Shown piece after piece: positions 6,428 to 62,936 of a DNA stretch of 64,000 nucleotides; the first letter of the stretch is position 1, and the number at the start of each line of letters is the position of its first letter. The DNA comes from an uncultured Bacilli bacterium (GTDB lineage: Bacteria > Bacillota_I > Bacilli_A > RF39 > UBA660), in NCBI GenBank assembly GCA_934096945.1, contig CAKOND010000005.1, forward strand, positions 18,088 through 82,087, read 5' to 3'. The notes under the pieces are model-generated. The model was not told where the DNA came from. It saw nothing but the letters and a program-made list of their open reading frames with translations, and searched no databases. A program made the position numbers and the translations under genes.

Positions 6428-6527
6428 AAAAAAATGAGCTTTCCCCCGACTAAAGGAACCCACAAGGCAAGCTTGCTGGTATGTAATTTACATATCCTTT
6501 AGTAACTCGGCGAACTACTAACTCACC
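6428..6527 (-). ncRNA. candidate structured small RNA (~100 nt), unknown family
   Basis: A minus-strand promoter TTGACA-17-TATTAT (6534-6562) lies upstream. In the RNA, CUAAAGGA pairs with UCCUUUAG, UUCGCCGA with UCGGGGGA, and UGAG-UU with AAGCUCA. The RNA ends in a U7 tract. Confidence 0.3.
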
Positions 6528-17297: not shown

Positions 17298-18030
17298 TCC
17301 TTTCTCTAACTAGATATGCAATTGATATATTATCATTTCCCCCTCTTGCATTACATTTTTTTATTAATTTTACTACTTTTTCTTGTACACTTAAGTCATC
17401 TTCGTTTAATACTTTTTCAATTTGTTCATCACTTAGCATTCCTGTTAGGCCATCACTACATAAAAATACTGCGCTACTACCATTATCGACGTCAAAAATG
17501 TCTGGTTCACATTTTTCAGCGGCACCTAAAGCTTTCATTAAAACGTTTTTCTTTGGATGATTTAAAGCCTCTTCAGGGGTTAAATCTCCAGCATCTACCA
17601 GTAAATTAACTAGTGTATGTGGTTTTGTTACTCTATGTAATTTTTTGTTTTTCATAACATAACCAGATGAATCACCAATACTCGCAAATATTAGAAAATC
17701 TTTAGTTACAATGGCGGCTACAACTGTTGTTCCAAGTCCTTTGGAATTTTCATTTTCTTCGCCATAATTAAGAATTTCTTTATTGATTTCTGCAATATTA
17801 TCAGAAAGCCAATTAACAGCATCTATTTTAGTACCTACTTTTGCACTTTCTGTAAATCTTTTACCTAAATGGGCAACAGTTAAGGCACTAGCTACTTCAC
17901 CTTTTCTGTGTCCTCCCATACCATCTGCAACAACGCATAAGTATTCACCACTTATATTTTTTAAAATTGTTACACTATCTTCATTATGTTCTCTAACTCT
18001 TCCCGTATCGGTTAAATAAAACGCTTTCAC
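17290..18030 (-). CDS. stp: PP2C-family Ser/Thr phosphatase (Stp/PrpC)
   Basis: REHNEDS, ADGMGGH, CSDGLTG, GGNDNIS. Confidence 0.9.
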   Translation of the reverse strand: MKAFYLTDTGRVREHNEDSVTILKNISGEYLCVVADGMGGHRKGEVASALTVAHLGKRFTESAKVGTKIDAVNWLSDNIAEINKEILNYGEENENSKGLGTTVVAAIVTKDFLIFASIGDSSGYVMKNKKLHRVTKPHTLVNLLVDAGDLTPEEALNHPKKNVLMKALGAAEKCEPDIFDVDNGSSAVFLCSDGLTGMLSDEQIEKVLNEDDLSVQEKVVKLIKKCNARGGNDNISIAYLVRERND

Positions 18031-18032
18031 TT

Positions 18033-19049
18033 TTAATCACTCTCGCTTCTTAACTGCCCACATGCAGCTTTAATGTTTCCGCCAAACTCACGTCTAACAG
18101 TTACATTTATACCACTTTGTTTAAGTGTTTCATAAAATATATCTATTCTTTTTTTATCGCTTTTGGCAAAATCTATATTATTTGTTTCATTATATGGTAT
18201 CAAATTTACATATACATTCATTCCACGTAATAATTTTGCAAGCTCTATGGCATCTTCTTTTTTATCATTAACCATATTAAGCATAACATATTCTATAGTC
18301 ACTCGTCTATTAGTTTTTGCAATATAGTCCTTAAGAGCATGTATAACTGTGTCAACATTATACGCTTTATTAATAGGCATAATCTTATTTCTAATTTCAT
18401 CAGATGGGGCATGAAGTGATAAAGCTAAGTTAACTTGTAAATCTAAATCACTAAATTCTTTAATTTTTGGCACTAATCCACAGGTAGATACCGTAATATG
18501 TCTTGCTCCAATAGCTAGGCCTTTAGCATCATTTATGATTTTAATAAATTTAATAATATTATCATAATTATCAAAAGGCTCACCAATACCCATCATTACG
18601 ACACTATCAATTCTTTTACCAATGTATTGTTCGATAAGTAAAATTTGTTCTACGATTTCATAAGTTTCTAAGTTTCTCACCTTTTTAAGTCTTCCAGACT
18701 CACAAAAACGGCATCCCATATTACAACCAACTTGACTTGAAACACAAACTGATAAACCATAATCATGTTCCATCAAAACTGCTTCAATCTTTTCATCATC
18801 TAAAAGCCTAAATAAAAACTTTTTTACTAAAGGTCCTTCTTCTACAACTTCTATTTTAATAAAATCTGTATTAAAATCTTCACTTAATTTATTTTGAATA
18901 TCTTTTTTTATATTACTAAACTCATTTATATTCCACTTTTTTTGAATATATAACCATTCAAAAACTTGAGTTGCTTTAAATTTTTTCTCACCTATACTTA
19001 GAAAATACTCTTCTAAATCTTCGCGTGTTAAATCAAATATATTTTTCAT
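18033..19049 (-). CDS. rlmN: 23S rRNA/tRNA A2503/A37 methyltransferase RlmN (radical SAM)
   Basis: GCNMGCRFCESG (CxxxCxxC), MGIGEP, C-terminal ACGQL. Confidence 0.9.
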   Translation of the reverse strand: MKNIFDLTREDLEEYFLSIGEKKFKATQVFEWLYIQKKWNINEFSNIKKDIQNKLSEDFNTDFIKIEVVEEGPLVKKFLFRLLDDEKIEAVLMEHDYGLSVCVSSQVGCNMGCRFCESGRLKKVRNLETYEIVEQILLIEQYIGKRIDSVVMMGIGEPFDNYDNIIKFIKIINDAKGLAIGARHITVSTCGLVPKIKEFSDLDLQVNLALSLHAPSDEIRNKIMPINKAYNVDTVIHALKDYIAKTNRRVTIEYVMLNMVNDKKEDAIELAKLLRGMNVYVNLIPYNETNNIDFAKSDKKRIDIFYETLKQSGINVTVRREFGGNIKAACGQLRSESD

Positions 19050-19053
19050 ATTA

Positions 19054-19797
19054 TCACCTATTTTTCTTAGATAACGTTCTAACTAATTTTAAATTACCAT
19101 AATCTTTATATTTTTCATAATATTCATGTTCAAACATTATTTTCTTAAATGAAACATTACTTATTTCTTCTTCTACTTTCTTTTCTTCCTCTTCTTTTGT
19201 CTTTATAAATTCTGGTGTCATTTTTTTATTTTCATCAGAATATTCTTTTACATAACTACCTAAAGTTAATATTTCACTTAATACAAGAGGAATAAACAAA
19301 ACACTAAATAACTTTATCTCATTTAATTCATTCATTTTAATTGCTAAACTTGTTCCTAAATAATTTAAAAATGTTTTGTCTACTAGAAGGTATGATAAAG
19401 AAATAACGATGCCAGCAACCCACATTTTTACCTTTCCAAGCATGTTCGACTTAATGTTCATCCCTTTGTTATATTTAACACTTTGGACATAAGCAATACC
19501 TAGTTCAAAAATAATAGGAATAATTGCAAGCGGGGAGATTTTCATAAGTAGAATCATATTTATAACTAGAAATGCTTTGTCACTTAAAGCATCAAATAAA
19601 CTACCAAAAAAGGTAGAAGATTTTAATTCACGAGCCATTAAACCATCAATACAATCAGTTAGAAAACAACTGGCAGAAAGCATAAATGTTGTAAATCCCC
19701 CATAGATTTTATAAACTGGAATAAGAGCAAAAATTCCAATTACTCTTAGTAATGTTACAAAATTCGTAATTAAAAAGTTAAATTTTTTCTTATTCAT
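19054..19797 (-). CDS. CDP-alcohol phosphatidyltransferase family protein
   Basis: DCIDGLMARELKSSTFFGSLFDALSDK matches D..DG..AR...G...D...D. Multi-TM. Confidence 0.8.
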   Translation of the reverse strand: MNKKKFNFLITNFVTLLRVIGIFALIPVYKIYGGFTTFMLSASCFLTDCIDGLMARELKSSTFFGSLFDALSDKAFLVINMILLMKISPLAIIPIIFELGIAYVQSVKYNKGMNIKSNMLGKVKMWVAGIVISLSYLLVDKTFLNYLGTSLAIKMNELNEIKLFSVLFIPLVLSEILTLGSYVKEYSDENKKMTPEFIKTKEEEEKKVEEEISNVSFKKIMFEHEYYEKYKDYGNLKLVRTLSKKNR

Positions 19798-25519: not shown

Positions 25520-25807
25520 CTACTTTTTTTGTTTGCTTATTTCATAAGCTTTTTCTATTTCAGCTTTTGATAATCCAGTGTAATTACTTATTTTGGCAAT
25601 ACTTTCATTTTCACGTATCATTTTCTTTGCAACAGCCATTTTTCCCTCATTTATTCCTTCATTTATACCAAGTGCCTTGCCTTTTTTCATGCCACGAGCT
25701 TCACTTTTTTCTTTTATTAAATATTCTCTAGCATTTTGCATCATTATATTTTCCTTTTCTGGTGTTAGATTCCAAAATGATTTAATTGAATTTTCATTTA
25801 ATAACAT
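25520..25807 (-). pseudogene. 3' fragment of a second Rpn-type nuclease gene (tandem partial copy)
   Basis: It encodes MLLNENSIKSFWNLTPEKENIMMQNAREYLIKEKSEARG..., identical to residues ~223-260 of the upstream full-length gene, then a divergent tail. It has no N-terminal nuclease domain. Confidence 0.6.
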
Positions 25808-25828
25808 AAGTTTATTTGCACACTCCTT
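25657..25828. repeat. 172-bp near-identical direct repeat, copy 1 (period 284 bp)
   Basis: By hand alignment it matches 25941-26112 with only a few mismatches. Confidence 0.85.
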
Positions 25829-25833
25829 ATTTT

Positions 25834-26757
25834 TTATTTCATAAGCTTTTCTATTTCAGCTCTTGATAATCCGGTTGCACTTTTAATAATATCTGCACAA
25901 ATATTCATTTTAACTAAATTCTTTGCAACATCTATCTTTCCTTCATTTATGCCAAGTGCCTTGCCTTTTTTTATGCCACGAGCTTCACTTTTTTCTTTTA
26001 TTAAATATTCTCTAGCATTTTGCATCATTATATTTTCCTTTTCTGGTGTTAGATTCCAAAATGATTTAATTGAATTTTCATTTAATAACATAAGTTTATT
26101 TGCACACTCCTTCACTTCTGGGTCATCTACACTATCTGCATATATAATTATGTCATCTTTATTTCTTAATGAAATTAGTGTTAATAGCGACCCTTTCATA
26201 TTTTCTTTAGCAACATTATCATACCATACTTTTTTATAATTATCAAGATTTACATGCATAAATCTCAAATTAAGTAATATCTTTTTATACTCTTCTGGCA
26301 TATTTTCACTATCTATTATTAATCCTCTTTCTAATCCCATATTATAGTTTAAAGAGATATGAACAAATTTTGTTATTGTATCAAATCTTTCACCAACTTT
26401 TGTAAACTGTGAATAAAAACTAAAGAAAAAGCAATTATTTCTTACTATTGTTTCTTCACCCCATGATGTATTAAGTTCCATATGAATCATTTGCCCATTT
26501 GATTCTACGAGTAAATCTAATCTTTTAGTCCTTTCCTCAGTATTTTGTACTGCTAGTTCTGGTGACATTATTTTTATTACTTTAGTCTTTTCTTTAGTTA
26601 CTTCACTTATGAGTCTTTCTAAAAGATGATAATCCTCATTTTTAACTACTTCTTCACTACAAAAAATAGCTTTAAATACCCTATCATAGTAAAAGGCATA
26701 AAATTCTTGTTCTTCATTTTTATATTTCACTTTTTTAATTGTTGCAACGTTTTGCAT
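25834..26757 (-). CDS. Rpn family recombination-promoting nuclease / PD-(D/E)XK putative transposase
   Basis: YDRVFKAIF..., RLDLLVESNGQMIHMELN (D...D/E.K-like core) and a C-terminal helical tail typical of YhgA/Rpn-like proteins. Confidence 0.7.
   Translation of the reverse strand: MQNVATIKKVKYKNEEQEFYAFYYDRVFKAIFCSEEVVKNEDYHLLERLISEVTKEKTKVIKIMSPELAVQNTEERTKRLDLLVESNGQMIHMELNTSWGEETIVRNNCFFFSFYSQFTKVGERFDTITKFVHISLNYNMGLERGLIIDSENMPEEYKKILLNLRFMHVNLDNYKKVWYDNVAKENMKGSLLTLISLRNKDDIIIYADSVDDPEVKECANKLMLLNENSIKSFWNLTPEKENIMMQNAREYLIKEKSEARGIKKGKALGINEGKIDVAKNLVKMNICADIIKSATGLSRAEIEKLMK
25941..26112. repeat. 172-bp near-identical direct repeat, copy 2
   Basis: See copy 1. Confidence 0.85.
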
Positions 26758-58116: not shown

Positions 58117-60438
58117 TCAATTGGTTTTGCTATCTTCAAGTATTACTTCATCATCTTTTGTTTTAAAACATATATCTTTAAATTTACAATAAGTACATGC
58201 TATATTTTTACCACCAAGTACCTTGGGATTAATATTAAAATTACCTTCCACAATATTCTTTATAACATCATCTATAATCTCATTTACTTTAATTATTAAA
58301 TTATCCATCTCTTCATTAGATAACACTTTACTAGTACTATAAAAAGAACCATCTTTCTTAAATCTTAAACCTTTTATCATTTTACTATCTTTATAGTTAC
58401 TATCAAGAAGACTCATTATAGTTTCATTACTATTGGTATAGCCAGATAGTCTTAAGTTTTCTTTCTTTAAAGTTTCTAAAGACTTAACTTTATCTCTATT
58501 TAAAACATTATTAAGTACTCTTTCTATATAAAAACCTGCAATAATAGAGTCTTTAAATCTATCACTTGTTTTAAGTAAATATAAATATATTGGAAGTTGC
58601 ATATTAAGACCATATTCTAAAGTATCAAGTTTTATATTCTTATCCCCAGTTTTATAATCTACTACTGCTATTACTTCTTTATCATTATATTTAGTGGTCA
58701 TAACTTTATCTATAAAACCTTTAAAGTTCACCTTTACTCCATTATACTTTTTTTCCACATTAAGTTCTGTTTCAAATAAATAATCATTTAAACTACTTGT
58801 CTTTCTTTGTTCTTTTAAATATTTAAGTAAAAAGTCTATTTCTTTAGCAAGAATATGAATATAAAATAGTTCTCTTTCTTTAAATTCAAAATCTAATTCT
58901 TTAATAAATAAACTTATCTCTTTTTCAATATCTATTTCTTTATTTATACCAATCTCTAATATATGATGCACAATCTGTCCAATTATAGTTTTAAATGTTT
59001 CTTCAAAAACATCAAGATTTAATACTTTAGATAAATAATATCTAAAACTACATTCATTAAAATTTTCAAGACTTGTATATGAAAGTGTTACTCCTTCTTC
59101 AAGTCTTTCTTTAAGTAAAGTATTATCTACACTAGTAAATTTATTATTATATTCTCTATATGGAATATTTAGATTATTTTGATATATTTTTAAATACTTA
59201 CTTTCATCATTATATTTATATAAATTATCTAAATCCATAGCATACTCAAGTTCACTATATTTTTTGCTGAAAGACACTTTTTTATCTATATCTATTTTCT
59301 TTACCTCAAGTCCTAAATCTTCAATTAAGCTTGATGGATATAAAGCTCCATTATCGCCATGCATAGAATAACTTATACTTAAACTTGGAATATTATATAT
59401 TAAATTTATAACATTATCTTTATTTATCTTATTTATTTCTAAAGATGTATCAAGTCCTAATTTATTCTTTATATTATCACTTAAAAAGTCATCATCTTTT
59501 TCTACTTTAGGATAACTACCTATATTAAAGCCAAGTAAAAACACATAGTCACTTTCACTATAAACCTCTTCAAGAGAATGTAACTCTATAGCATTTTTAT
59601 ATATAGTATTACTAACTTTAGCTTGTTTTAAATCCCTTTTAATAAACTCTTTTCTTATATTTTTATTCTTTACTTGTACAGACTTATTTATAATAGTAAT
59701 AAGTTCATTTACATTACTATACTTACCACTTAAATATTCTATTACTTCATCTATTTCTTTATTATCATAAAATTTCAAAAATTCTTTAGAAATACTTAAA
59801 CTTAAAAAAGATGTACTACTTTCTATATTAATTGGTACTTTAAATAATTTAAAATAGTATTCTAAATGTTTATAATATTCTTTACTTGCAATTAGTTTGA
59901 TATTATTAATATTTATCCCTTTTTTAAGTAATTTCTTTATTTCAATAATTACATGCTCTACTTCTTCACATATATCTTTTGCTTCATATACACATGGCTT
60001 ATAACTATTTTTTTCTAATTTTTCTAATTTATAGTTAATACCATCTAAAATTAATTTTTCTTCTTTAGTTAATACATCTTTACCATAGATGGTAACTTTT
60101 TGATTAAGCATATATTTTCTAAATTTATCATCATATATAAGTAAATTTTGTTCATCTAATTCTTTTCTTAATTCATTTAAAAACTTTACTTTTTCATCAT
60201 CAATATCTTTTAAAAAGTATAAATTATCTAAATAAATCTTAGCTATATTAATATTTACATTATATTTATTTATAATATATTCTAAAGCTCTATCATCATA
60301 ATCAAAGAATAACTTTTTTTTAAGTTCTTTAAACCCTAAAAATTTATTATTATTAAATTTCTTTTCCATATTTATTTTCTTCAATAATTCTATTTTATTA
60401 AATTCATTAGTTATTACTACATTCATAATATACCTCAT
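58117..60438 (-). CDS. addB: AddB/RexB-like nuclease subunit (short, 773 aa)
   Basis: C-terminal PD-(D/E)XK + Fe-S pattern: CSFRYYL ... VDYKTGDK ... CTYCKFKDIC. It has no Walker A and is shorter than Bacillus AddB. The start could be the ATG at 60426. Confidence 0.8.
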   Translation of the reverse strand: MRYIMNVVITNEFNKIELLKKINMEKKFNNNKFLGFKELKKKLFFDYDDRALEYIINKYNVNINIAKIYLDNLYFLKDIDDEKVKFLNELRKELDEQNLLIYDDKFRKYMLNQKVTIYGKDVLTKEEKLILDGINYKLEKLEKNSYKPCVYEAKDICEEVEHVIIEIKKLLKKGININNIKLIASKEYYKHLEYYFKLFKVPINIESSTSFLSLSISKEFLKFYDNKEIDEVIEYLSGKYSNVNELITIINKSVQVKNKNIRKEFIKRDLKQAKVSNTIYKNAIELHSLEEVYSESDYVFLLGFNIGSYPKVEKDDDFLSDNIKNKLGLDTSLEINKINKDNVINLIYNIPSLSISYSMHGDNGALYPSSLIEDLGLEVKKIDIDKKVSFSKKYSELEYAMDLDNLYKYNDESKYLKIYQNNLNIPYREYNNKFTSVDNTLLKERLEEGVTLSYTSLENFNECSFRYYLSKVLNLDVFEETFKTIIGQIVHHILEIGINKEIDIEKEISLFIKELDFEFKERELFYIHILAKEIDFLLKYLKEQRKTSSLNDYLFETELNVEKKYNGVKVNFKGFIDKVMTTKYNDKEVIAVVDYKTGDKNIKLDTLEYGLNMQLPIYLYLLKTSDRFKDSIIAGFYIERVLNNVLNRDKVKSLETLKKENLRLSGYTNSNETIMSLLDSNYKDSKMIKGLRFKKDGSFYSTSKVLSNEEMDNLIIKVNEIIDDVIKNIVEGNFNINPKVLGGKNIACTYCKFKDICFKTKDDEVILEDSKTN

Positions 60439-60466
60439 TAATTAATACATTAATATTATATCATTA
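60421..60466. repeat. 46-bp direct repeat DR1 (addB start codon + leader)
   Basis: ATTCATAATATACCTCATTAATTAATACATTAATATTATATCATTA matches 62891-62936 at 44/46 positions. Weaker homology continues to ~60528 / ~62970. Confidence 0.9.
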
Positions 60467-60473
60467 AGCTACT

Positions 60474-60503
60474 TAAAAAGATAATGTTTTTTGCATTATC
60501 TTT
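60474..60503 (-). terminator. Rho-independent terminator of paralog-B transcript
   Basis: On the minus strand: AGATAATG-caaaaaa-CATTATCT followed by TTTTT. This lies in the 31-nt stretch that is absent from DR2. Confidence 0.7.
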
Positions 60504-60544
60504 GAAATTTTGAAACTCTACGTAATTATAATGGGGTTACTTAT

Positions 60545-60696
60545 AAGTATGTTGATAACTCGGCGCCGCTGCCTCACCTCGCACAAACCGCGAGACTCGG
60601 CAGTTGGGTCTTCCACCACGCCAATCTCTTCACTTCGCATTATTTTGCACCCGGCCTGACCTAGCACGCGGACGCGCTAGACAGGCATGTCCGATC
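60545..60696 (-). other. GC-rich (~60% by hand count) structured non-coding element 3' of paralog B, unknown function
   Basis: Hairpins CTAGC(A)CG-cgga-CG(C)GCTAG (60661-60680) and CTGCC-tcac-CTCGC-acaaacc-GCGAG-actc-GGCAG (60569-60603). There is no long ORF and no similarity to the VR. Confidence 0.5.
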
Positions 60697-62100
60697 CTAG
60701 TTTACCACAATCGGATCAGCGGCTGTGCCGCTTCCCGATGCATAGTTCACGGAAGATGAAAGATTGAAGGACGGCCGCACCGCAGTGCTGCTGTACACAA
60801 AGTTGTTGTACACGTAACCACCGAAGTACACAAAGAACGCACTGATCGAAATGTCCGCACTACGGGAAATAGTCCATTCTGTAGCACCTATATACATCCA
60901 ATTTGCACTTTTGATGTCTGTTCCATCATAATCATAAAAATTTGTTATCCATGCACTTGGGGCTGCTGCAAATCCATAATCACTTGCATACATTAAGCCT
61001 ATTTTTTTATTTACACTTGGTGATGAATTAATTTCATTTTGATATACTGCTTTGGCTGGTTGGCTAATGCTAATATTATTAAATCCTCCAACCTTCCATG
61101 TTGTTTCTGCTATATTACCTTTTGTTGTTTCATCAAATGCATTTAAAAAATCATTATTTAAATATGTATTTAGACTTGATGTTGACCATGTATTATTACC
61201 ATTACCATCCCAGGCTTTTCCTCCTACAGATGTTGATTTGATTAATTTTACTTGGTTTCCAAATACTCCTATTATTCTGTACAAATTATCTGTTGGACAT
61301 GGTGTTGTACTTCCAAAACATACAAAGTTATTTACACTTTCACTTGCTCCGGCATATCTATAACTATTGTCACCTGCTCCATTTGTTAGTGTACTAGTAT
61401 GATGATAAATATTATTTGCCCCTTGAGTTCCTGTAAATTTACTTATAACATAACCTGCTAATAATTGTTTTTTTTGTATCATCACTTTTGCACTCATGCT
61501 CTTACCAGCATTAGCACTTTGACTTGCATCATAGTTTACAAATGTTACTTTAATATTCCATTTTTCTTCTTTACTTGGGTTTGCAGTTATTTCTCTATTA
61601 TTAAAGAGTGTTATAAGTCCTGATTTATTTGTTATATCATAACCTGATACTTGAGTTCCATTTGCTCCAGTTACGATAACATGATTAAGTGTACTTATAT
61701 TGGTTACTTCATTACCACTACTATCTGTTACTGTCATTATTATTTCTGGTGTATTTTCATTTATTGAATATGTAAATGTATTACTTTCTATATTCAAATA
61801 CAAGTAATAATGTTCTGTTGCTGTATTTGTTTTATTATTTGCTGTGAGCATTGCACTTGCATATGTACTTCCTGTTTGATTTCCTTTTCCACTTGCAAAA
61901 TTATCTTGATTTATACTAAATGATATTGCACTACCACTTGAGAATGTAAATGTATCCACAGTATTTGCATTAACTTTGATGTCCGCTACTGCTGGATCCC
62001 CTACTTGAGCTTGAAAATATGCATATGTTGCAGTTACTACTGTGAGCGCTAATGCTACTATTGCTACTATACTTATTATTTTTGCCTTTTTATTTTCCAT
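60697..62100 (-). CDS. secreted/surface protein, paralog B; C-terminal lectin-like module with hypervariable cassette (putative DGR target)
   Basis: 467 aa. The signal segment + TATYAYFQAQ and residues ~70-215 are near-identical to paralog A. It lacks A's ~130-aa central insert. The C-terminus reads EWTISR...AVRPSFNL. Confidence 0.75.
   Translation of the reverse strand: MENKKAKIISIVAIVALALTVVTATYAYFQAQVGDPAVADIKVNANTVDTFTFSSGSAISFSINQDNFASGKGNQTGSTYASAMLTANNKTNTATEHYYLYLNIESNTFTYSINENTPEIIMTVTDSSGNEVTNISTLNHVIVTGANGTQVSGYDITNKSGLITLFNNREITANPSKEEKWNIKVTFVNYDASQSANAGKSMSAKVMIQKKQLLAGYVISKFTGTQGANNIYHHTSTLTNGAGDNSYRYAGASESVNNFVCFGSTTPCPTDNLYRIIGVFGNQVKLIKSTSVGGKAWDGNGNNTWSTSSLNTYLNNDFLNAFDETTKGNIAETTWKVGGFNNISISQPAKAVYQNEINSSPSVNKKIGLMYASDYGFAAAPSAWITNFYDYDGTDIKSANWMYIGATEWTISRSADISISAFFVYFGGYVYNNFVYSSTAVRPSFNLSSSVNYASGSGTAADPIVVN
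60766..60876 (-). repeat. putative DGR variable region VR-B
   Basis: Gap-free codon alignment with 32900-33010; see findings. Confidence 0.65.
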
Positions 62101-62259: not shown

Positions 62260-62892
62260 TTATAAATTTTCAATTAAAAATACCAACACCTGCAAATAAA
62301 CTTTAAAAGTATTTTCATCTACAAATCCAAGTAATGTTTTTTCTGATAATTTAACAAAGAAAATTCTTTTGATTTTGCATTAGGTTCAATCACAGAATAT
62401 TGAAATTTTTTTGATGCATTTTGAAGTTGCAAAGATAATGAATTATATATTTTTCTAATTTTTAAAGTTTCTAAAGAATTGTTAACATGATTGTTCATAC
62501 CATTTAAAAAAAGTTAAGTCATGCAATAATTCAGAAACACTATCAGGCATACCACCAGAAAGTAAATATTCTTTATAATATGATAAAGCTTTATCATGTA
62601 TAAGCCCCATAGCTTTATTTTTATCAAAACATTCTTTAATTCTATCAAGTAATGCATCTTGATTAAAAGTCATTAAGAATTCTTCAAAATCTATGGGATA
62701 CATATCAATTCTAGAAACTTTACCTACTGGAAAAGGTCTATTTAATCTTGATAATTTAACCCCGAGTAAAGAACCAGCACATATAATTCTTACATTACTA
62801 TGTTTTTCATTGAAAAATTTCAGTTCTGAAATTAATTCTTCATATTTAAAATTATTTTTTATAATATTTAAATTCATTTTTACAAAATTCAT
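62260..62892 (-). pseudogene. decayed AAA-ATPase/DUF4143-family gene (no P-loop N-terminus; frameshifted C-terminal part)
   Basis: ORF 62482..62892 holds the middle region (..ICAGSLLGVKL...FPVGKVSRIDMYPIDFEEFL...GGMP). Downstream, other frames still read ..SKKFQYSVIEPNAKSKEFS.. and ..FKVYLQVLVF.. . Confidence 0.55.
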
Positions 62893-62936
62893 TCATAATA
62901 TACCTCATTAATTAATACATAAATATTATGTCATTA
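62891..62936. repeat. 46-bp direct repeat DR2 (second copy of addB start/leader)
   Basis: See DR1. It includes a second ATGAGGTATATTATGAAT that opens only a short ORF. Confidence 0.9.

What the first reader, a model, noticed from the sequence alone, without database searches (positions are those of the whole stretch)
60545..60696. About 150 nt of ~60% GC, hairpin-rich non-coding sequence immediately 3' of VR gene B
In a genome where intergenic DNA is extremely AT-rich, the stretch between the stop of gene B and its terminator is GC-rich (86 G+C in the 140 nt 60561-60700 by hand count). It has no convincing ORF.

On the transcript strand it can form CUAGCGCG-uccg-CGUGCUAG, 17 nt after the stop. 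It can also form a longer CUGCC-gagu-CUCGC-gguuugu-GCGAG-guga-GGCAG hairpin with tandem G/A internal loops.

DGR targets are known to need cis elements (IMH plus a GC-rich hairpin or cruciform) 3' of the VR. Alternatively this could be a relic of a higher-GC donor cassette or an unrelated structured RNA. Gene A has nothing comparable downstream.
Basis: partly seen in the sequence, partly recalled or inferred. Interest (0 to 1): 0.6.

Follow-up and report, generated by a model that had tools for sequence, protein, structure and literature searches.

The report
Structured element behind DGR target genes
The GC-rich stretch after gene B is one copy of a conserved, previously uncatalogued two-hairpin element that sits just behind the stop codon of target genes of a diversity-generating retroelement (DGR, a targeted-mutation system) in one genus of gut bacteria; its role is still inferred.

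Summary

It is not a relic. A covariance model finds it in 20 of 56 species of the genus and in none of 300 genomes from other genera of the family. It has no Rfam match.

Except where an insertion sequence has split it off, every copy examined starts at the stop codon of a C-type-lectin-like DGR target gene. In at least 11 cassettes (about 10 more weakly) it lies between the target's stop and the template repeat: target, element, TR, MutS-like gene, avd, RT. It never follows the TR in the cassettes read.

Two 14-15 bp helices are kept by compensatory changes (24 of 29 pairs; 93% paired against 74% when shuffled). G·U pairs outnumber A·C about 9 to 1, so the sense strand is the one that folds.

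It is not essential for targeting. In a relative, a remote VR that differs from the resident TR only at adenines lacks the element.

My best reading (about 45%) is an enlarged version of the known stem-loop downstream of the VR. An RNA-level 3'-UTR role is the main rival. No read data could be used.

The parts
60772..60870 (-). Variable region (VR) of gene B. The 3' boundary is inferred by analogy with TR/VR pairs in relatives.
   Evidence: It aligns with the other VRs, with constant positions kept and variable codons differing. The TR/VR homology ends at the equivalent GCG(G/T)CC(G/A) in G003:C18 and G005:C36.
60745..60771 (-). IMH-like segment just 3' of the VR (UCCUUCAAUCUUUCAUCUUCCGUGAAC), conserved in all targets.
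   Evidence: It is conserved in every VR gene aligned, including those without the element. It is absent after the TR.
60710..60739 (-). HP0: a hairpin inside the coding tail (AUCGG-GA-AGCGGC-ACA-GCCGCU-GAU-CCGAU), 32 nt after the VR end.
   Evidence: It is predicted in almost all copies. 83% of cells pair against 78% when shuffled, and 6 of 12 pairs have double changes (13 of 500 shuffles reach this). The evidence is modest and confounded by coding constraint.
60697..60699 (-). TAG stop codon of gene B (ORF 60697..62100, 467 aa, DUF6273).
60551..60696 (-). The conserved structured element. The model match runs 60551-60705 and includes the last two codons and the stop.
   Evidence: CM R1 scores 174 bits, E = 5.5e-37, and this is the only hit in the window. 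There are copies in 20 of 56 genomes of the genus.
60654..60686 (-). HP1: 14 bp imperfect hairpin GCCUGUCUAGCGCG-UCCG-CGUGCUAGG-U-CAGGC with conserved G·U pairs.
   Evidence: 10 of 14 pairs have compensatory changes and 95% of cells pair.
60642..60653 (-). Conserved single-stranded motif CGGGUGCAAAAU (consensus GGGGUR followed by an A-run) directly 3' of HP1.
   Evidence: It is nearly invariant in alignments A3 and A7, except in subfamily 1b.
60569..60603 (-). HP2: 15-pair hairpin CUGCC-GA-GUCUCGCG-GUUUG-UGCGAGGU-GA-GGCAG. Its tandem G·A is replaced by Watson-Crick or G·U pairs in other subfamilies.
   Evidence: 14 of 15 pairs have compensatory changes, and one base pair is deleted on both arms together in subfamily 1b.
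60551..60559 (-). 3' terminal motif GUUAUCAAC, the sharp 3' boundary of the repeated unit.
   Evidence: It is near-invariant across family 1, and similarity between copies stops after it. It is shared with the shorter family-2 element, where GUUAUCA pairs with the stop-codon region UGAUAAC.
60475..60503 (-). AT-rich terminator-like hairpin plus T-run after the element (GAUAAUG-CAAAAAA-CAUUAUC-UUUUU).
   Evidence: Read by eye. It was not called by the consensus scan, which requires at least 3 G-C pairs.

Best explanation
Shown. 60551-60696 is one copy of a genus-specific element of about 155 nt. The element is a fixed part of a lineage of DGR cassettes that carry a MutS-like (MSL) gene. It begins at the stop codon of the diversified target gene. 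It folds on the sense strand into two long imperfect hairpins, HP1 and HP2, and possibly a third, HP0, in the coding tail. It ends at GUUAUCAAC. The cassette order is target(VR), stop, element, about 100-170 nt of AT-rich DNA, leader, TR, spacer, MSL, avd, RT. The donor TR is not followed by the element in the cassettes read. Gene B is a remote or orphan target that has kept the element. The 70%-complete assembly holds no TR and only a decayed DGR RT.

Inferred. The element is an enlarged counterpart of the GC-rich stem-loop that lies downstream of IMH in the Bordetella phage DGR. When the sense strand is single-stranded, either as the lagging-strand template or as the strand displaced during transcription, the hairpins would form. 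That would hold the neighbouring VR/IMH open or marked, so that the antisense cDNA can anneal. This would raise the efficiency of retrohoming without being strictly required.
For: Association with targets and cassettes:
- Every copy examined follows a VR-bearing gene end, even at only 45-60% element identity. The few 'stand-alone' copies are separated from their gene by an IS insertion with a target-site duplication of about 9 bp.
- In 11 cassettes the element lies 0.6-1.2 kb upstream of the RT on the same strand, about 1.1-1.2 kb in ten of them.
- About 10 more diverged cassettes give weak hits at the same position.
- The DNA downstream of the TR is unrelated to the element. This matches the published rule that IMH* at the TR lacks the inverted repeat (PMC5758913).

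Structure:
- 24 of 29 pairs show compensatory changes, and 92.8% of cells pair against 74.4% when shuffled and 29-47% when the partner is slid.

Strand:
- There are 161 G·U cells against 17 A·C cells, and the sense strand folds more stably under both RNA and DNA parameters.
- The sense strand is the one that must pair with the cDNA. A 2026 study found DGR editing favoured when the target is co-directional with replication and proposed that the stem-loop prolongs the open state (PMC12875486).
- All 15 VR genes of this genome are co-directional by GC skew, which is a weak test.

Selection:
- The element keeps 58% G+C in a 27% G+C genome, and is kept across cassettes whose RTs are only about 61% identical.
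Against: - G004:C4 has a VR that differs from the resident G004 TR at 11 positions, all of them TR adenines. It has an AT-rich tail and no element.
- G004:C29a differs at 7 of 7 adenine positions and has an IS where the element should start, with no element detected.
- The element is therefore not necessary for a gene to be a target.
- HP1 and HP2 lie 85 and 168 nt from the VR end. The phage cases are at 4-34 bp, and longer spacers lowered activity in BPP-1.
- The HP1 loop is UCCG, not GRNA.
- The conserved single-stranded motifs (GGGGUR, UAGAAC, GUUAUCAAC) and fixed G·U pairs look more like a specific RNA-protein recognition site than a generic DNA hairpin.
- Many element-bearing targets in G003 and G004 do not match their genome's TR at non-A positions, yet the element is still conserved there.
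Confidence: 0.45

Rival explanations
1. RNA-level 3'-UTR element of the target mRNA. The hairpins and conserved loops act in the transcript. They could work as a barrier to 3' exonucleases, a processing site, a protein-binding site, or an insulator between the target mRNA and the downstream TR transcript. The link to DGR would then arise only because all carriers are paralogues of one gene family.
For: - The element lies inside the transcription unit, between the stop and either a terminator-like hairpin (gene B) or the ribosome-binding site of the next gene (C17-type loci).
- There is a strong sense-strand G·U bias.
- The 226-nt RNA fold has z = -4.3.
- Single-stranded motifs and fixed G·U pairs are conserved while neighbouring pairs covary.
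- The element persists at targets that do not match the resident TR.
- It is dispensable for targeting.
Against: - A generic stabiliser would not need conserved loop and linker sequence.
- The element is present at every RT-proximal target whose 3' flank could be read at E<1e-3 (11 cassettes) and probably at about 10 more.
- Paralogues that lost it (gene A type) remain intact genes, so it is not needed for expression as such.
- There are no transcript data.
Confidence: 0.3
2. Donor-side element. It would be part of, or a regulator of, the TR-containing RNA, for example a 5' domain that recruits RT-Avd or controls read-through into the TR. Remote copies such as gene B's would be leftovers of duplicated cassettes whose TR-RT part was deleted.
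For: - The element always lies upstream of the TR in intact cassettes.
- Several decayed cassettes exist. A family-2 element is fused to a truncated RT at G000:C15 and C20. Element plus leader plus a TR stub occurs in G033:C7, G005:C40 and G004:C7.
- Gene B's flank shares AUCAACAUACUUAUA with the C15/C20 junction.
Against: - 100-170 nt of AT-rich, poorly conserved DNA separates the element from the conserved leader and TR.
- Remote copies remain G+C-rich and structurally intact in an AT-rich genome, and some are followed directly by another gene.
- Sequence similarity runs on without a break from the target gene's coding tail into the element, not from the TR side.
Confidence: 0.1
3. A different kind of structured RNA that merely travels with these genes, such as a trans-acting sRNA, a ribozyme or a recoding signal.
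For: - Covariation and conserved unpaired motifs fit a functional RNA.
- There is no Rfam family, so it would be a new one.
- It starts right at the stop codon.
Against: - No copy was found away from a target-gene 3' end in 56 genomes of the genus or 300 genomes of the family.
- The stop codon varies among TAG, TAA and TGA, and the downstream frame is broken by indels, which argues against read-through or Pyl/Sec recoding.
- No promoter-like site lies in front of it on the sense strand.
Confidence: 0.1
4. Functionless relic of a higher-GC donor cassette, or a passenger of gene conversion among paralogues.
For: - It is contiguous with the G+C-rich VR and tail.
- The orthologous locus in G009 carries a different subtype (1b rather than 1a), which shows that recombination replaces these 3' modules.
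Against: - 24 of 29 base pairs show compensatory double changes.
- One base pair is deleted on both arms together.
- G·U positions stay fixed while neighbouring pairs change.
- The element is retained across cassettes whose RTs are only about 61% identical.
- G+C is maintained against a 27% background.
Confidence: 0.05

Closest known systems
GC-rich inverted repeat (hairpin/cruciform, 'stem-loop') downstream of IMH in DGR target genes: Bordetella phage BPP-1 mtd, Legionella ldtA (Guo et al. 2011, PMC3240598; Wu et al. 2018, PMC5758913)
   Same: - It lies 3' of the VR of DGR targets and is absent after the TR.
- It has G+C-rich stems of at least 8 bp, and HP1 has a 4-nt loop.
- Stem pairing is conserved while stem sequence varies.
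- It is not strictly essential. In BPP-1 the hairpin also only boosts efficiency.
   Different: - It spans about 155 nt (about 230 nt with HP0) and has two or three hairpins of 12-15 pairs, instead of one hairpin of about 20 nt.
- It lies 85 and 168 nt from the VR end rather than 4-34 bp.
- The loop is not GRNA.
- It has conserved unpaired motifs and fixed G·U/G·A positions.
- Folding is strongly biased to the sense strand, unlike a symmetric cruciform.
MSL-containing DGRs ('Architecture D' of Wu et al. 2018)
   Same: The relatives' cassettes encode a small MutS domain I protein (21-27 bits, above Pfam's cut-off), an Avd-like protein and a DGR-type RT. TR/VR differences fall only at adenines.
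   Different: In the passages of that survey that I read, no conserved structured element between target and TR is mentioned. The window's own genome has only a decayed RT and no TR in the assembled 70%.
DGR spacer (Sp) RNA between TR and brt, which recruits bRT-Avd and primes cDNA synthesis (Handa et al. 2018, PMC6182149, as summarised in PMC12875486)
   Same: It is a structured, cassette-specific non-coding region of similar size.
   Different: The Sp is on the donor side, 3' of the TR. This element is on the recipient side, 3' of the VR, upstream of the TR. It shows no sequence similarity to the post-TR spacer of the same cassettes.
REP/BIME, BOX or other repeated extragenic palindromes
   Same: It is multi-copy, intergenic, hairpin-forming and located at gene 3' ends. 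It is also flanked by a recurrent IS insertion site, and some insertion sequences are known to target REP sequences (my own knowledge).
   Different: It is never found away from one gene family's stop codon. Sequence similarity runs on into the coding tail. There are only 3-7 copies per genome, and it is confined to one genus.

Membership tests
DGR target-side GC-rich hairpin/cruciform (Guo et al. 2011) | Located downstream of the VR/IMH of a DGR target gene | tested here: met
   The element starts at the stop codon of VR-bearing genes in all copies examined. In the cassettes whose sequence was read, those VRs differ from the TR only at adenines.
DGR target-side GC-rich hairpin/cruciform (Guo et al. 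2011) | Distance of 4-34 bp from the 3' end of the VR | tested here: not met
   HP1 starts 85 nt and HP2 168 nt after the inferred VR end. Only the weaker coding-region hairpin HP0, at 32 nt, falls in the range.
DGR target-side GC-rich hairpin/cruciform (Guo et al. 2011) | G+C-rich stem of 7-10 bp with a 4-nt loop of consensus GRNA on the sense strand | tested here: not met
   The HP1 core is an 8 bp stem with a 4-nt loop, but the loop is UCCG. The full stems are 14-15 pairs and HP2 has a 5-nt loop. Some diverged copies have GAAG or GUAA loops.
DGR target-side GC-rich hairpin/cruciform (Guo et al. 2011) | Absent downstream of the TR (IMH*) | tested here: met
   The sequence after the TR in G003:C18, G005:C36 and G004:C13 is unrelated to the element.
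DGR target-side GC-rich hairpin/cruciform (Guo et al. 2011) | Needed for efficient retrohoming | not testable with these tools
   There is only indirect evidence. G004:C4 and G004:C29a are A-only derivatives of the resident TR yet lack the element. It is therefore not essential, and its effect on efficiency is unknown.
Diversity-generating retroelement (cassette to which the element belongs) | RT, TR and VR with adenine-specific differences, plus accessory genes | tested here: met
   This is met in relatives. G003:C18 and G005:C36 have RT (RVT_1), an Avd-like gene, a MutS_I gene, and a TR whose differences from the VR are all at A. In the window's own genome there are only VRs and a frameshifted, truncated RT with the IGNMTSQ motif at C15, and no TR.
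Any Rfam 15 family | Covariance-model match | tested here: not met
   There was no hit at E<=10 on 60400-60950, and none at E<=1 on five diverged copies and an intact cassette.
Intrinsic (Rho-independent) terminator | G+C-rich hairpin followed directly by a U-run | tested here: not met
   No T-run follows HP1 or HP2, and the scan finds none. In some loci the next gene's RBS follows at once.
Independently mobile repeat (REP/MITE-like) | Copies in varied intergenic contexts | tested here: not met
   All hits in 56 genomes of the genus adjoin a target-gene tail or an IS that split them from one. There were no hits in 300 genomes of other genera, or in the phage and plasmid collections.

The most novel reading that the evidence does not exclude
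The hairpins would be mismatch-decorated landing pads. On single-stranded sense DNA they would display fixed G·T wobbles, tandem G·A pairs and, in subfamily 1a, a bulged T. These are the classic ligands of MutS domain I. The cassette's small MutS-like accessory protein (MSL) would bind them to mark recipient genes and bring the RT-Avd-cDNA complex to the adjacent VR. The MSL protein keeps the mismatch-stacking Phe of the GxFY motif. That would give a function to the unexplained MSL accessory gene and a molecular basis for how DGR cDNA finds remote targets.
Probability: 0.1. Interest if true: 0.8.

Novelty: new variant of a known kind. Interest (0 to 1): 0.55.

Why it matters
How mutagenised cDNA finds and enters a DGR target is still unresolved (PMC12875486). 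The only known target-side signals are IMH and a short hairpin.

This lineage offers a much larger target-side structure that is supported by covariation. It has conserved unpaired motifs and fixed non-Watson-Crick pairs, and it is linked to cassettes that carry a MutS-like accessory gene.

Nature has also supplied controls. Targets with the element, targets without it, and targets whose element was split off by an IS all sit in the same genomes. This makes the question of what marks a recipient directly testable, both by reconstitution and by population metagenomics.

Independently of function, it is a candidate new family for RNA/structure databases, found in uncultured human-gut Bacilli MAGs (record titles such as CAG:460 and CAG:609).

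Tried and rejected
- Rfam, at gathering thresholds and at permissive E-values, on the window copy, on diverged copies and on a whole cassette: no hits.
- BLASTN against the phage and plasmid collections: no hits.
- Search of the own genome for the TR, leader and spacer of the G003 cassette: only VR-type matches, so no donor is present in the assembly.
Transcription, 3' ends and VR heterogeneity could therefore not be examined.
- Decayed ORF: rejected, because only short mechanical ORFs exist and indels break the frame.
- Intrinsic terminator: rejected, because there is no U-run.
- Stop-codon read-through or Pyl/Sec signal: rejected, because stop codons vary and the downstream frame is not conserved.
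- Integron attC-like site (suggested by UGAUAAC...GUUAUCA ends): rejected. The core-site consensus does not fit, and I saw no cassette-array pattern.
- Independent mobile repeat: the 'stand-alone' copies turned out to be split from their gene by an IS4-like insertion.
- Extra helices could not be supported across subfamilies and are left out of the model. These were a 1a-specific UUGGCGU/GCGCCGA stem, a closing stem between the stop region and GUUAUCA, and pairing of the tail UGCAUC with the post-HP1 GGUGCA.
- Orientation relative to replication: all 15 VR genes are co-directional by GC skew. This does not discriminate, because skew and gene strand are confounded in this genome.

Full report
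**The observation.**
- Gene B is the minus-strand ORF 60697..62100 (467 aa, DUF6273). Its C-terminal G+C-rich variable region aligns with gene A and about ten other VR genes of the same genome.
- The stretch after its TAG stop is as described. There are 86 G+C in 60561-60700, and 57.9% G+C over 60545-60696 against 27.3% for the window.
- Both hairpins are there.
- As RNA the sense strand folds better than the antisense strand (-65.1 against -48.8 kcal/mol). With the coding tail included, the 226-nt fold reaches -93.7 kcal/mol, z = -4.3.
- Rfam gives nothing, even at E<=10.
- Gene A has AT-rich DNA right after its stop.

**It is a repeated unit tied to DGR targets.**
- In the window's own assembly (33 contigs, 70% complete) the stretch recurs after VR genes on C17 (84% identity) and C1 (70%). 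A third copy on C4 is cut off by the contig end.
- In other species of the genus there are many copies at 88-94% identity.
- A second subfamily (1b) is about 70% identical.
- A shorter relative of about 72 nt follows a second VR-gene family. It shares the 3' end GCGCCG..GUUAUCAACA.
- Similarity always begins in the coding tail and stops sharply after GUUAUCAAC.
- Three apparently free copies are preceded by the end of an IS. A 400-aa DDE transposase element inserts about 9 nt before the stop with a duplication of about 9 bp. The same IS explains the different downstream sequence of C2, C20 and C21 in this genome.

**Place in the cassette.**
- G003:C18 reads as follows: target gene (stop at 1464), element 1465-1612, about 100 nt of AT-rich DNA, TR at about 1718-1820, spacer, a 126-aa MutS domain I protein, an Avd-like protein, then the RT. 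All differences between this TR and its VR fall at adenines.
- G005:C36 has the same order with a diverged element and an RT 66% identical.
- I built a covariance model from 21 copies. It finds the element in 20 of 56 species of the genus, and in none of the other 300 genomes sampled from the rest of the family (214 genera in all).
- DGR RT homologues occur in 48 of the 56 species.
- Combining coordinates, the element lies 0.6-1.2 kb upstream of the RT on the same strand in 11 cassettes, about 1.1-1.2 kb in ten of them.
- With filters off, about 10 further cassettes whose RTs are only 61-74% identical give weak hits at the same position.
- The sequence after the TR never resembles the element.
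- All diverged copies that I checked follow a VR-type gene end.
- An exact 22-mer from HP1 occurs only in human-gut MAG records titled Firmicutes bacterium CAG:460, Clostridium sp. CAG:609, and uncultured Bacilli, Tenericutes or Erysipelotrichaceae.
- There are no matches in the phage or plasmid collections.

**Structure.**
- Two helices are conserved: HP1 (window 60654-60686) and HP2 (60569-60603).
- On 38 copies, 89.6% of cells pair against 80.1% when shuffled, and 22 of 29 pairs show double changes.
- On 25 diverse copies that include RT-proximal ones, 92.8% pair against 74.4% when shuffled and 29-47% for slid partners. 24 of 29 pairs have double changes.
- These alignments were fitted to the model, which favours the structure. 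However, RNAalifold predicts the same helices on its own, with 16 of 21 pairs compensated.
- Subfamily 1b lacks one base pair on both arms of HP2 at once.
- The tandem G·A of subfamily 1a is replaced by G·U/C-G in 1b.
- G·U pairs on the sense strand outnumber A·C by 161 to 17. Several G·U positions stay fixed while neighbouring pairs covary. The folded strand is therefore the sense strand, as RNA or as single-stranded DNA.
- Unpaired motifs are conserved: GGGGUR after HP1, UAGAAC before HP2, and GUUAUCAAC at the end.
- A third hairpin (HP0, 60710-60739) lies in the coding tail 32 nt after the VR end. Its support is modest.

**What it does.**
- The known parallel is the GC-rich stem-loop after IMH. 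It is absent after the TR, and it boosts retrohoming in Bordetella and Legionella without being essential.
- A 2026 study found editing favoured when the sense strand is the lagging-strand template. It proposed that the stem-loop prolongs the open state. The sense-strand bias seen here fits that idea.
- Three points count against a strict requirement or a simple equivalence:
  - G004:C4 (11 of 11 differences at TR adenines, AT-rich tail, no element) and G004:C29a (7 of 7) are evident targets without it.
  - The hairpins are far from the VR, and the loop does not match GRNA.
  - Many element-bearing genes do not match their genome's TR at non-A positions.
- The main rival is an RNA-level role in the target's 3' UTR. 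Donor-side and relic readings are less likely.
- The MutS domain I accessory gene in these cassettes suggests a speculative link to the fixed G·T, G·A and bulge features of the hairpins.

**Limits.**
- The own genome lacks an intact RT and TR in the assembled part.
- E-values of the home-built model are rough, and the weak hits rest mainly on their constant position.

Noticed in passing
G000:C21:8-1555 (L004); G000:C2:69577-70395 (L005); G000:C20:1853 onward (L007); G000:C5:83558 (just beyond the window): An IS4-like insertion sequence (400-aa DDE transposase, ends CTTACCTACGGACAGTTTT) is inserted at the same spot, about 9 nt before the stop codon of DGR target genes, between HP0 and HP1. The duplication is about 9 bp. 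This occurs in several loci and several species (also G004:C29, G004:C36, G003:C25, G036:C17). Either the IS targets this site or the interrupted module spread by recombination.
   Followed up: partly
G000:C15:1-900 (L011) and G000:C20:1-300 (L007): A decayed DGR reverse transcriptase is joined directly to the short family-2 element. It has frameshifts and stops, is truncated at both ends, and still carries IGNMTSQ and YMDD. C20 keeps only about 90 nt of the RT's 5' part. Both contigs start at the same base, inside a VR tail.
   Followed up: partly
G000:C3:4080-4160, C10:10200-10270, C15:88-160, C20:88-160: A second, shorter (about 72 nt) G+C-rich element follows a second family of VR genes. 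It forms one composite hairpin closed by UGAUAAC (including the stop codon) pairing with GUUAUCA. It shares the 3' end of the gene B element.
   Followed up: partly
window 60398-60466 and 62868-62936: A direct repeat of 69 nt (86% identity) containing the addB-like start and leader brackets gene B, its element and a truncated AAA_14 ORF. The orthologous locus in G009 keeps the same flank but carries the 1b subtype of the element, so the 3' module has been exchanged by recombination.
   Followed up: partly
G005:C22 (L055), element 19277-19431, RT 17622-18695: In this cassette only about 580 nt separate the element from the RT, and only the first 49 nt of leader plus TR match. The cassette has probably lost most of its TR and accessory region.
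   Followed up: no
G033:C7 (L014 about 1380-1500), G005:C40, G004:C7: These are cassette stubs. Element and leader are followed by the first 11 nt of a TR joined to the last 20 nt or so of a gene tail (..AGAGTAAACTAA). This suggests that ancestral TR units were copies of the VR plus tail up to the stop.
   Followed up: no
window 6428-6527 (-): An Rfam DUF3800-VII RNA match (61 bits, above the gathering score) lies next to a tRNA cluster.
   Followed up: no
window 25654-25828 and 25938-26112: A 175-nt direct repeat at 99% identity, spaced 284 nt apart. Not examined.
   Followed up: no
L054:2002-2382 (G003:C18) and L059:3571-3960 (G005:C36): The small accessory ORF of these cassettes matches MutS domain I above Pfam's cut-off. 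By eye it keeps the Phe of the GxFYE mismatch-binding motif, but has Ser in place of Glu.
   Followed up: partly
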